A stretch of 64,000 nt of DNA from Candidatus Hermodarchaeota archaeon (GCA_048885525.1 JBHLLP010000008.1:32001-96000), one strand, 5' to 3'. Positions 6,308 through 34,434 are shown, counted from the stretch's first letter. Numbers and translations are program-made. The notes: generated from the sequence alone by a model not told the origin.

Positions 6308-6507
6308 ATGACAGAATTTAAAAGAGTTAAATGTCCCCAATGTGGCAATGAGAATCCACGTATGCTTCATGAGGAACCAGATAAGAGTAATGTGCTTTTC
6401 TATAGTATAAGTATTGCTATTTCAGCATGCTGCTGAAGCAGGGTACTCCGGTTTATTCAAAAAGCATAAAGTGTGGAGGATGCGGAAATCTCTTCAAAAA
6501 GGACTAA
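6308..6507 (+). CDS. Small zinc-ribbon protein (56 aa after splicing); join(6308..6408,6438..6507)
   Basis: Spliced translation MTEFKRVKCPQCGNENPRMLHEEPDKSNVLFYSMQGTPVYSKSIKCGGCGNLFKKD*; the two CxxC knuckles share a frame only after removing 29 nt; AAGGT RBS just upstream. Confidence 0.75.
6409..6437 (+). other. Putative 29-nt bulge-helix-bulge (BHB/BHL) intron in an mRNA
   Basis: Central helix UAGU/GCUG, 3-nt bulges AU^A and AA^G, intron helix AGUAUUGCU/AGCAUGCU; carries the in-frame TGA of the unspliced frame. Confidence 0.65.
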
Positions 6508-23466: not shown

Positions 23467-23566
23467 CGCAGCTGATGGGATTTGAACCCATGAGTGCATT
23501 GCACACTGGCTTTCTGGGATAAATTCCGCTCCAAGCCAGCGCCGTACCAGGCTAGGCTACAGCTGC
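23467..23566 (-). tRNA. tRNA-Ser(GGA) with 17-nt intron at 37/38 (23512-23528)
   Basis: Acceptor GCAGCTG/CAGCTGC, G73, long variable arm, GTTCAAATC T-loop, anticodon stem CTGGC/GCCAG, BHB helix UUGG/CCAG. Confidence 0.9.
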
Positions 23567-34341: not shown

Positions 34342-34434
34342 TGGCGGCCCTTGAGGGGAATCGAACCCCTATCCCTCCGCAGGATAGCTGGGTTTGAAGC
34401 CCAGCGTCAGAGACCACTCCAACCGTCAAGGGCC
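34342..34434 (-). tRNA. selC: tRNA-Sec(TCA), 9/4 fold, CCA encoded
   Basis: 9-bp acceptor GGCCCTTGA/TCAAGGGCC, 7-bp D stem with 4-nt loop, GCTGGG-CTTCAAA-CCCAGC, long variable arm, 4-bp T stem, G73-CCA. Confidence 0.97.

What the first reader, a model, noticed from the sequence alone, without database searches (positions are those of the whole stretch)
6308..6507. Candidate tRNA-type (BHB) intron inside a protein-coding gene, with a competing fold
Seen: the frame from ATG 6308 carries one CxxC (CPQC) and stops at TGA 6434; a second knuckle (KCGGCG) lies downstream in another frame. The RNA can fold as a 4-bp helix UAGU(6403-06)/GCUG(6432-35), two 3-nt bulges AUA(6407-09) and AAG(6436-38), and an 8-bp intron helix (6410-18/6424-31). 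The exon-exon helix is imperfect. Established: archaeal EndA cuts after the 2nd nt of each bulge, and cbf5 in Crenarchaeota is the classic mRNA precedent. Applying that rule removes exactly 6409-6437 (29 nt), creates an ATG across the junction and gives a clean 56-aa zinc ribbon (..FYSM-QGTPVY..). The cut sites from the fold and the frame restoration agree. A mutually exclusive hairpin UUCAGCA-UGC-UGCUGAA (6421-6437) would disrupt the BHB. Inference: regulated non-spliceosomal mRNA splicing in an Asgard archaeon, conceptually parallel to HAC1/XBP1. The non-canonical tRNA intron in this window implies a relaxed-specificity endonuclease. I know of no description of this case but could not search.
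Basis: partly seen in the sequence, partly recalled or inferred. Interest (0 to 1): 0.92.

Follow-up and report, generated by a model that had tools for sequence, protein, structure and literature searches.

The report
tRNA-type mini-intron in Asgard zinc-ribbon gene
A 29-base insert shaped like an archaeal tRNA intron splits a tiny zinc-ribbon protein gene in 35 related Asgard (Lokiarchaeia-type) species, and comparison with uninterrupted relatives indicates that the tRNA-splicing enzymes cut it out of the mRNA, a kind of splicing published so far for the coding part of only one archaeal gene (cbf5).

Summary
Removing 6409-6437 (29 nt) joins AU+G into an AUG codon and gives a 56-aa, two-knuckle zinc ribbon.

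Evidence for a real intron:
- All 21 uninterrupted homologues found read ..YYSMQGTPVY.., exactly the predicted junction.
- Thirty-five species of the window's genus carry an insert of exactly 29 nt at this site.
- The bulge-helix-bulge (BHB) fold is 94% paired across them. Nine of 14 pairs show two-sided changes (0/500 shuffles).
- Exon 2 is under the same purifying selection as exon 1 (pN/pS 0.15 vs 0.13), only in the spliced frame.
- The genome encodes two EndA paralogues and RtcB.
- Three further BHB inserts interrupt the same small gene at other sites in single species. One is a recent copy of intron 1.

No RNA data were available, so splicing is inferred, not seen.

That hairpin shows no covariation and is broken in 9 of 34 distinct sequences.

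This scan has already noted similar mRNA introns elsewhere in this genome and in other Asgard genomes. My own genome scan recovered two of them, in AMP phosphorylase and a JAMM protease.

Verdict: a new member of a known kind, of high interest.

The parts
6308..6408 (+). Exon 1: ATG to the first two bases (AU) of the split Met-34 codon. It encodes MTEFKRVKCPQCGNENPRMLHEEPDKSNVLFYS plus AU.
   Evidence: The N-terminal 33 aa are 80-94% identical to homologues. pN/pS is 0.13.
6409..6437 (+). 29-nt BHB intron. Its length is 3n+2, and the unspliced frame stops at TGA 6434-6436.
   Evidence: It is exactly 29 nt at the same site in 35 species. It is absent from 14 loci of the same genus and 16 loci of other genera, all of which read AGY/TCN-ATG-CAR.
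6438..6507 (+). Exon 2: the G of the Met codon, then QGTPVYSKSIKCGGCGNLFKKD and TAA.
   Evidence: pN/pS is 0.15 in the spliced frame against 2.9 and 1.06 in the other frames. The G at 6438 is invariant in all 35 species (column 47).
6403..6406 (+). Central 4-bp helix H, 5' strand (exon, UAGU). It pairs with 6432-6435.
   Evidence: 99.3% of cells are paired across 34 distinct sequences. Most species have CAGU/GCUG. The Ser codon is AGU or AGC in 35/35 intron-bearing alleles, but TCN in 14/30 intron-less ones.
6432..6435 (+). Central helix H, 3' strand (intron, GCUG).
6407..6409 (+). 5' bulge AUA. The inferred cut lies between 6408 and 6409.
   Evidence: The first two bases (AU) are invariant. 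The third varies among A, G and U across species, as expected for an intron base (columns 16-18).
6436..6438 (+). 3' bulge AAG. The inferred cut lies between 6437 and 6438.
   Evidence: The last base G is invariant and the middle base varies among A, G and C (columns 45-47). Only this pair of cuts yields AUG.
6410..6418 (+). Intron helix h', 5' strand. It pairs with 6424-6431, with one bulged base. The loop is 6419-6423.
   Evidence: Seven of 8 pairs show changes on both sides, for example G-C/A-U at 19-40 and C-G/U-A at 26-34.
6424..6431 (+). Intron helix h', 3' strand.
6392..6401 (+). Exon-exon outer helix, 5' strand. Two registers are possible: the canonical one 6400-01 with 6440-41, or a 7-bp helix 6392-98 with 6440-46.
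   Evidence: Pair 9-50 reads C-G 25, U-G 6, U-A 2. The 7-bp helix is 93% paired, and pair 3-53 reads G-C 15, A-U 7, G-U 4, U-A 1 at synonymous sites. The two registers cannot be told apart here.
6440..6446 (+). Exon-exon outer helix, 3' strand.
6420..6438 (+). Rival hairpin (UUUCAGCA-UGC-UGCUGAAG). It is mutually exclusive with H and h'.
   Evidence: It is the MFE of 6390-6450. It shows no covariation and is 74% paired.

Best explanation
The gene at 6308-6507 is a split gene for a 56-aa zinc-ribbon protein of unknown function.

Proposed mechanism:
1. The primary transcript folds around the insert into a bulge-helix-bulge motif. This consists of a 4-bp helix H between exon 1 and the 3' end of the intron, a 3-nt bulge on each strand, an 8-bp intron hairpin, and an exon-exon helix.
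2. The host's splicing endonuclease cuts after the second nucleotide of each bulge, at 6408|6409 and 6437|6438. The genome has two EndA paralogues, which fits the broad-specificity (alpha-beta)2 type described for Asgard archaea.
3. RtcB joins the exons. This creates the AUG codon for Met-34 and puts the second CxxC knuckle in frame. The 29-nt intron is probably released as a small circle.

Shown here: the anatomy, its conservation and covariation in 35 species, selection on exon 2 in the spliced frame, the identity of the predicted junction with intron-less orthologues, and the presence of the enzymes.

Inferred: that cutting and joining actually occur in the cell, and which enzymes do it.

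The intron is old within the genus and has been lost precisely at least once or twice. The same small gene has been invaded again at three other sites in single species. One of these inserts arose by copying intron 1 to a second site that offers the same exon word, CAGUAU.
For: 1. Junction. The spliced 56-aa query finds 21 full-length homologues (55-62 aa, and one of 96 aa) from Lokiarchaeota/Promethearchaeota assemblies. All read ..YYSMQGTPVY... It also finds 7 clusters of 42-44-aa truncated forms ending YYSI...

2. Distribution. Of 49 loci examined in the window's genus, 35 have an insert of exactly 29 nt at the same place. The other 14, and 16 loci from other genera, have Ser-ATG-CAR.

3. 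Structure.
- BHB fold: 94.3% of cells are paired, 9 of 14 pairs show two-sided changes, and the covariation score is 0.279 against 0.168 for shuffles (0/500). Sliding the partners collapses the pairing to 14-54%.
- The BHB fold with the outer helix is the MFE in 26 of 35 species.

4. Cut sites. AU at the start of the 5' bulge and G at the end of the 3' bulge are invariant, while the intron-side bulge bases vary. Shifting the cuts by one base would give AAG or AUA instead of the invariant Met.

5. Selection. Exon 2 has pN/pS 0.15 in the spliced frame, like exon 1 at 0.13. The unspliced tails are not conserved as peptides (26 different tails of 2-9 residues).

6. Exon codons fit the helix. Ser is AGU in 34 and AGC in 1 of 35 intron-bearing alleles. 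Gln is CAG in 32 of 35 intron-bearing alleles against 9 of 30 intron-less ones.

7. Machinery. The genome has two PF01974 EndA genes (104 and 70 bits) and one RtcB (571 bits). Asgard EndA is reported as (alpha-beta)2 with the L1 loop (PMC5829648).

8. The insert is real DNA. Contigs from four other runs span it without gaps.

9. Further BHB inserts in the same gene, each restoring the frame by the same cut rule:
- L040:222-252, 31 nt
- L014:1655-1684, 30 nt
- L054:423-454, 32 nt

10. Same genome. My motif-plus-ORF scan recovers 30- and 31-nt BHB inserts that restore DKHS|TGGVPGNK (AMP phosphorylase) and HSHPGF|KVMMSHID (JAMM).
Against: - There is no RNA evidence. No RNA run holds this locus. 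The one scan of metagenome contigs for the junction word found only multi-gene DNA contigs of intron-less alleles.
- In the window's own sequence helix H is weak (2 G-U of 4 pairs). The base pair next to the 3' bulge on the exon side is an invariant A.C mismatch, so the 3' site is a relaxed BHB, not a strict one.
- The rival hairpin is nearly isoenergetic in this species.
- The 35 species are kin, so shuffle statistics overstate independence.
- The protein's function is unknown. No Pfam family passes its cut-off and no significant structural match was found.
Confidence: 0.85

Rival explanations
1. Regulated splicing. The intron is real, but a mutually exclusive hairpin (6420-6438) competes with the BHB fold and gates splicing, in analogy to HAC1/XBP1. 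It is an add-on to the best explanation, not a replacement.
For: The hairpin is the MFE of 6390-6450 at -16.5 kcal/mol. The BHB fold of 6392-6453 has -15.6 kcal/mol. The six-pair core UUCAGC/GCUGAA can form in 25 of 34 distinct sequences. The hairpin-loop bases U30 and U31 are 90-100% conserved. In several of the 9 species whose MFE is not the BHB fold, the MFE contains this hairpin.
Against: There is no covariation: 1 pair with a two-sided change, which 360 of 500 shuffles reach. The central C-G pair is lost (C to A) in 9 of 34 sequences from at least three lineages. The 3' arm is already constrained by helix H and the bulge, so its conservation needs no second explanation. For the same reason the covariation test has low power here.
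Confidence: 0.1
2. Translational recoding. The ribosome reaches exon 2 by a -1/+2 frameshift, or by hopping over the insert as in T4 gene 60, without any RNA processing.
For: The two frames overlap in the window (6406-6434), so a single shift could join them. A hairpin follows the site.
Against: - There is no X XXY YYZ slippery heptamer in columns 12-47 of the alignment, and no matching take-off and landing codons (inspection).
- In some species the overlap shrinks to a few bases. In L010 and L022, by inspection, stops lie at nt 12-14 of the 32-nt Ser-to-Gln gap in the exon-2 frame and at nt 16-18 in frame 0.
- Substitutions in the insert follow base pairing, not codons. The unspliced tails are unconserved.
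- A shift or hop would not produce the invariant Met. It would also not explain the invariant AU...G or the fixed length of 29 nt.
Confidence: 0.03
3. A broken or split gene. The insert is a decaying insertion in a pseudogene, or the two halves are made as separate peptides.
For: Gene callers annotate only the 42-aa ORF (P0023-P0029). The window has an ATG at 6427 in the exon-2 frame.
Against: - Both halves are under strong purifying selection in 33 species (pN/pS 0.13 and 0.15).
- All four cysteines are kept in all 35 species. The two species with further BHB inserts in exon 2 (L014, L040) keep them once those inserts are removed.
- The insert length never varies.
- The in-frame ATG before exon 2 is absent in most species, for example L008, L012 and L022.
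- A half zinc ribbon with one knuckle cannot bind zinc on its own (established knowledge of the fold).
Confidence: 0.02

Closest known systems
BHB intron in the cbf5 (pseudouridine synthase) pre-mRNA of Crenarchaeota (Watanabe 2002; Yokobori 2009, PMC2738675)
   Same: Both are short introns inside a coding sequence that fold with the flanking exons into a relaxed BHB motif. In both, the predicted cut lies between the second and third bulge residues. Both are ascribed to a hetero-oligomeric splicing endonuclease, and both show gain and loss among related species.
   Different: The gene is a 56-aa zinc ribbon, not cbf5, and the phylum is Asgard/Lokiarchaeia-type. The intron is only 29 nt. The same gene has three further intron sites in single species, and one insert is a copy of another. 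Splicing here is inferred from comparison, whereas cbf5 splicing was shown by cDNA and in vitro cleavage.
Archaeal tRNA and rRNA BHB introns, including the non-canonical and multiple introns of Thermoproteales and Asgard tRNA genes (bioRxiv 10.64898/2026.10.13.758758; PMC5829648)
   Same: The motif geometry is the same (3-nt bulges, 4-bp helix H, cut inside each bulge). The machinery is presumably the same (EndA and RtcB). Gains recur at sites whose exon sequence can complete the motif.
   Different: The host RNA is an mRNA. [quoted passage not shown] The Asgard tRNA-intron preprint does not mention mRNA (0 occurrences of 'mRNA').
Haloferax volcanii EndA substrates outside tRNA and rRNA (5' UTR BHB, PMC7714728)
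   Same: An mRNA is cleaved by the splicing endonuclease at a BHB motif.
   Different: Here the reading frame depends on excision.
HAC1/XBP1 unconventional splicing (Ire1 plus tRNA ligase/RtcB)
   Same: Both are non-spliceosomal excisions of a short intron that change the reading frame, followed by ligation with a tRNA-type ligase.
   Different: The nuclease and motif differ (Ire1 cuts twin 7-nt loops). No evidence of regulation was found here.

Membership tests
Archaeal BHB intron (EndA substrate) | [quoted passage not shown] | tested here: met
   H is 6403-06 / 6432-35 and the bulges are 6407-09 and 6436-38. H is 99.3% paired in 34 distinct sequences.
Archaeal BHB intron (EndA substrate) | Flanking intron helix h' next to the 5' bulge | tested here: met
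   The helix has 8 bp, and 7 of its pairs show compensatory changes.
Archaeal BHB intron (EndA substrate) | Flanking exon-exon helix h next to the 3' bulge (strict hBHBh' form) | tested here: inconclusive
   The adjacent pair is an invariant A.C mismatch, followed by 2 bp. Alternatively a 7-bp helix lies across a 4x4 loop and is 93% paired. This fits a relaxed motif of the kind (alpha-beta)2 enzymes accept (PMC5829648).
Archaeal BHB intron (EndA substrate) | Cutting after the second bulge nucleotide yields the functional product | tested here: met
   The predicted product matches the invariant YSMQG of all intron-less homologues. The rule itself is taken from PMC2738675.
Archaeal BHB intron (EndA substrate) | The host encodes the splicing endonuclease and an RtcB-type ligase | tested here: met
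   Two PF01974 loci (G000:C2:50632-50856 and C9:105848-106096) and one PF01139 locus (C56:14072-15379), all above the curated cut-offs.
Archaeal BHB intron (EndA substrate) | Excision observed in RNA (junction reads, circular intron) or cleavage shown in vitro | not testable with these tools
   No RNA run holds the locus. The junction-word scan found only DNA contigs.
HAC1/XBP1-like regulated unconventional splicing | A conserved alternative RNA state or sensor nuclease that gates splicing | tested here: not met
   The rival hairpin has no covariation and is broken in 9 of 34 sequences. I did not search the genome for Ire1.
Programmed -1 frameshift or translational bypass | A slippery heptamer, or matched take-off and landing codons at a conserved place | tested here: not met
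   Neither is present in columns 12-47 of alignment A1 (inspection).

The most novel reading that the evidence does not exclude
This genus is a lineage in which BHB micro-introns actively spread through protein-coding genes. They would copy themselves into new sites that offer the exon half of the motif.

Support from this work:
- The 31-nt second intron of G073 aligns over its whole length with intron 1 of the same gene (30 matching columns of 37-38 nt including the shared exon word). No shuffle of 2000 reached the intron-only alignment score.
- It sits after the same exon word, CAGUAU.
- It is absent from the sister species.

With four intron sites in one 56-codon gene and further BHB-split genes in the same genome, the closest archaeal relatives of eukaryotes would have genuinely mosaic, splicing-dependent protein genes and a working mechanism of intron gain.
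Probability: 0.4. Interest if true: 0.9.

Novelty: new member of a known kind. Interest (0 to 1): 0.75.

Why it matters
Published work confirms endonuclease-dependent splicing inside an archaeal coding sequence only for cbf5 of Crenarchaeota. PMC2738675 states that no other gene had been confirmed.

This case adds an Asgard gene for which 35 species give covariation-grade evidence. Splicing appears obligatory for making the protein, and the intron has been gained, lost and duplicated within one genus.

Three consequences follow:
- Gene callers systematically truncate such genes. Here they call a 42-aa ORF.
- Synonymous sites in the flanking exons are constrained by RNA structure.
- The origin and spread of introns in the archaeal relatives of eukaryotes becomes directly testable, with one small transcript and two recombinant enzymes.

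Tried and rejected
- RNA evidence. The look-up of sequencing runs listed no RNA holder.
- Junction word. One (L112) is the multi-gene DNA contig of P0003 already fetched as L080. The other is 12.7 kb long and was not examined further. I read both as intron-less alleles, not cDNA.
- P0003. This protein is 93% identical to the spliced product of L016 and looked like a possible spliced transcript. Its 8 contigs, where long enough, carry neighbouring genes on both strands (aroK, flavin reductase, DHquinase). It is therefore genomic.
- Intron family in the own genome. Covariance model R1, built from the 35 introns, finds only this locus in the own genome (65.9 bits; the next hit scores 17 bits, E about 0.9). 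The intron is not a repeated sequence family there.
- Genome-wide count. A motif-plus-ORF scan gave 315 'rescued' junctions with the canonical cut against about 297 with a decoy frame. With stricter limits the counts were 63 against about 60. Gene boundaries swamp the signal, so the number of mRNA introns in this genome cannot be estimated this way. Only two hits were recognisable by restored textbook motifs.
- Function of the protein. Pfam gives only sub-threshold generic zinc-ribbon hits. The AlphaFold model (pLDDT 84) has no Foldseek PDB match below E = 0.36.
- Broken aroK. The aroK ORFs directly upstream in L014, L030, L032 and L033 looked broken and might have held more introns. In fact an intact aroK lies 0.7-0.9 kb further upstream, and L030 also has a decayed partial copy.
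- Direction of gain and loss. The neighbour-gene (aroK) tree is rooted only at its midpoint, so the order of gain and loss is not settled.

Full report
**Observation.**
- The ORF from ATG 6308 carries CPQC and stops at TGA 6434-36 (42 aa).
- A second frame, open from 6406, carries QGTPVYSKSIKCGGCGNLFKKD and stops at 6505-07.
- The proposed helices, the two 3-nt bulges and the rival hairpin are all present.
- The single sequence is not convincing alone. Helix H has two G-U pairs. The fold of 6390-6450 has z = -1.3, and its MFE is the rival hairpin.

**Homologues settle the junction.**
I searched the protein collection with the 56-aa product obtained by removing 6409-6437.
- It returned 21 full-length proteins of 55-62 aa (one of 96 aa), some labelled Lokiarchaeota or Promethearchaeota. 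Every one reads ..VLY[YF]SMQG.PVY...
- It also returned 7 clusters of 42-44-aa proteins that end ..YYSI(S/G).... These are the same interruption called as a truncated ORF in other assemblies.

**Distribution.**
The window is G000:C8:32001-96000. A search of 154 genomes of the order with the 33 N-terminal residues found the gene in 124, almost all in one family. I read 70 loci.
- In the window's genus, 35 of 49 loci have exactly 32 nt between the Ser and Gln codons, that is AU + 29 nt + G.
- The other 14 loci of the genus, and 16 loci from eight other genera, have Ser-ATG-CAR.
- Five further loci from other genera did not match my motif pattern and were left unresolved.
- The upstream neighbour aroK is shared by intron-bearing and intron-less loci alike, so these are orthologues.
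- DNA contigs from four other runs of two studies span the insert with 0 gaps and 1-2 differences. None skips it.
- One contig of an intron-less relative in the same sample diverges from the window exactly after 6408.

Misassembly is therefore excluded.

**Structure.**
Alignment A1 has 35 sequences (34 distinct) and 62 columns. Column c corresponds to window position 6391 + c.
- The BHB fold is 94.3% paired.
- Nine of 14 pairs show changes on both sides. Examples are G-C/A-U at 19-40 (23 and 9 sequences), C-G/U-A at 26-34 (27 and 5), and U-A/A-U/C-G at 21-38.
- No shuffle of 500 reaches the observed values.
- Sliding the 3' partners by 1-3 columns drops pairing to 14-54%.
- The hairpin loop (columns 28-32) varies without compensation.
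- AU at the start of the 5' bulge and G at the end of the 3' bulge are invariant. The intron-side bulge bases vary (A/G/U and A/G/C). This is what the cut rule 'after the second bulge nucleotide' predicts (PMC2738675). A shift of one base either way would give Lys or Ile instead of the invariant Met.

The exon-exon helix has two possible registers.
- The canonical register has an invariant A.C mismatch followed by U-A and C-G. The C-G pair covaries with U-A in two species.
- A 7-bp helix 6392-98 / 6440-46 is 93% paired. One of its pairs covaries between the third positions of a Val and a Gly codon: G-C 15, A-U 7, G-U 4, U-A 1, unpaired 7.

With this exon context the whole h-B-H-B-h' fold is the MFE in 26 of 35 species, including the window's own at -15.6 kcal/mol.

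**The rival hairpin.**
The fold proposed as a competitor is 74% paired. It has one pair with a two-sided change, which equals the shuffled mean (360 of 500 shuffles reach it). It loses its central C-G pair in 9 of 34 sequences.

Its 3' arm is already fixed by helix H and the bulge, so the test has little power. Even so, nothing speaks for selection on this fold. I therefore keep 'regulated splicing' as a low-probability add-on.

**Selection.**
- Across 33 intron-bearing species, exon 2 has pN/pS 0.15 in the spliced frame, against 2.9 and 1.06 in the other frames. Exon 1 has 0.13.
- The unspliced continuation gives 26 different tails of 2-9 residues.
- Most species have no ATG in front of exon 2.

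This rules out a pseudogene and makes separate translation of the two halves unlikely. The invariant AU...G, the fixed length of 29 nt, helix-type substitutions in the insert, and the lack of a slippery site or matched hop codons argue against recoding.

The exon codons also bend to the helix.
- Ser is AGU in 34 of 35 intron-bearing alleles and AGC in one. In intron-less alleles TCN occurs in 14 of 30.
- Gln is CAG in 32 of 35 intron-bearing alleles, against 9 of 30 intron-less ones.

These species are kin, so these counts are only suggestive.

**Machinery.**
- The genome has two EndA catalytic-domain genes (104 and 70 bits; open frames of 205 and 212 aa) and one RtcB (571 bits).
- Asgard EndA is described as (alpha-beta)2 with the L1 loop that confers broad specificity (PMC5829648).
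- A tRNA at 23467-23566 (-) has a 20-nt stretch where the model expects 3 in the anticodon loop, plus a second 12-nt insert near the variable region. The enzyme of this organism therefore already handles non-canonical sites.

**More introns in the same gene.**
Three single species carry a further insert at another site. Each has BHB geometry, and in each the same cut rule restores the frame and the conserved sequence.

| Locus (genome) | Length | Split codon | Helix H | Spliced sequence |
|---|---|---|---|---|
| L040:222-252(-) (G073) | 31 nt | Tyr, U\|AC | CAGU/GCUG | ..PVYSRSVKCGDCG.. |
| L014:1655-1684 (G090) | 30 nt | AA\|A | UGCA/GGCA (3 of 4 pairs) | ..VYAKSMKCGDCG.. |
| L054:423-454 (G079) | 32 nt | AA\|A | UUAU/AUAA, AAA bulges, 8-bp hairpin | ..VYKTLLKCGNCG.. 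|

The G073 insert aligns over its whole length with intron 1 of the same gene (30 matching columns of 37-38 nt including the shared exon word). No shuffle of 2000 reached the intron-only alignment score. It follows the same exon word CAGUAU, and its sister species lacks it (100/100 support on the aroK tree). It is a recent copy.

**History.**
On a tree of the neighbouring aroK protein (44 rows, midpoint root), intron presence needs at least two changes. Intron-less groups sit among intron-bearing ones. This fits one old gain with precise losses, but without an outgroup the direction is not settled.

**The protein.**
- No Pfam family passes its cut-off. Only generic zinc-ribbon hits appear.
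- The AlphaFold model (pLDDT 84) has three strands at 20-32, 38-46 and 52-54. The intron site (Met-34) falls between the first two.
- No PDB match lies below E = 0.36. The nearest are TFIIS/Rpb9/Rpp21-type ribbons.
- A paralogous ribbon forms the C-terminus of a two-gelsolin-repeat protein in the same genome.

Function remains unknown.

**Context and novelty.**
The full-text searches found no paper that describes BHB introns in Asgard protein genes.
- Yokobori 2009 states that splicing was confirmed for no archaeal gene other than cbf5.
- The October 2026 preprint on Asgard tRNA introns does not mention mRNA.

This scan has found the same thing before on other DNA. It holds many unchecked notes in this genome and 120 notes in at least 65 genomes, and some follow-ups report RNA support. 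I tested part of this myself. A motif-plus-ORF scan of the whole genome could not separate signal from gene-boundary noise (315 against about 297 decoys). It did recover two of the noted cases by their restored textbook motifs, DKHS|TGGVPGNK and HSHPGF|KVMMSHID.

**Verdict.**
This is a real, conserved, structure-constrained BHB intron in an mRNA. It is very probably spliced by EndA and RtcB (confidence 0.85). There is no support for regulation through the rival fold. It is a new member of a known kind. Its interest is raised by the depth of the comparative evidence, by four intron sites in one 56-codon gene, and by one clear case of intron duplication.

Noticed in passing
L040:222-252 (-), genome G073: A second BHB intron of 31 nt lies in the same zinc-ribbon gene, inside the Tyr codon of PVY. 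It aligns over its whole length with intron 1 of that gene (0 of 2000 shuffles reach the score) and follows the same exon word CAGUAU. The sister species G085 lacks it. This looks like a recent intron duplication.
   Followed up: yes
L014:1655-1684 (+), genome G090; L054:423-454 (+), genome G079: Two more single-species BHB inserts (30 and 32 nt) lie at other sites in exon 2 of the same gene family. Both restore the frame and the conserved KCGxCG knuckle under the same cut rule.
   Followed up: yes
G000:C6:109044-109073 (+) and G000:C7:62562-62592 (+): My genome-wide motif-plus-ORF scan recovered a 30-nt BHB insert that splits DKHS|TGGVPGNK (AMP/thymidine phosphorylase motif). It also recovered a 31-nt insert that splits HSHPGF|KVMMSHID (JAMM motif). 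These are further mRNA introns in the same genome, as earlier notes of the scan had proposed.
   Followed up: partly
window 23467-23566 (-): A tRNA (47.6 bits) has 20 nt where the model has 3 in the anticodon loop, and a second 12-nt insert before the T arm. ARAGORN missed it.
   Followed up: partly
window 34342-34434 (-): A tRNA-Sec gene (ARAGORN; Rfam 63.6 bits). The organism probably makes selenoproteins.
   Followed up: no
L002:640-1647 (+) = G000:C25, and L003:1459-1656 (+) = G000:C59: Paralogues of the zinc ribbon. One forms the C-terminus of a 335-aa protein with two gelsolin repeats (PF00626, E = 4e-28). The other is a free 65-aa protein. This may be a hint that the ribbon family is linked to the Asgard actin-regulation set.
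   Followed up: partly
L014, L030, L032, L033 (genomes G090, G062, G072, G080): In these four species aroK lies 0.7-0.9 kb further from the zinc-ribbon gene than elsewhere. L030 also carries a decayed partial aroK copy with in-frame stops between the two genes.
   Followed up: partly
window 6408, run X2: A 1023-nt contig of an intron-less relative in the same sediment sample matches the window up to 6408 and then continues GCAAGGCACC... Intron-bearing and intron-less species of the genus therefore coexist in one sample.
   Followed up: no
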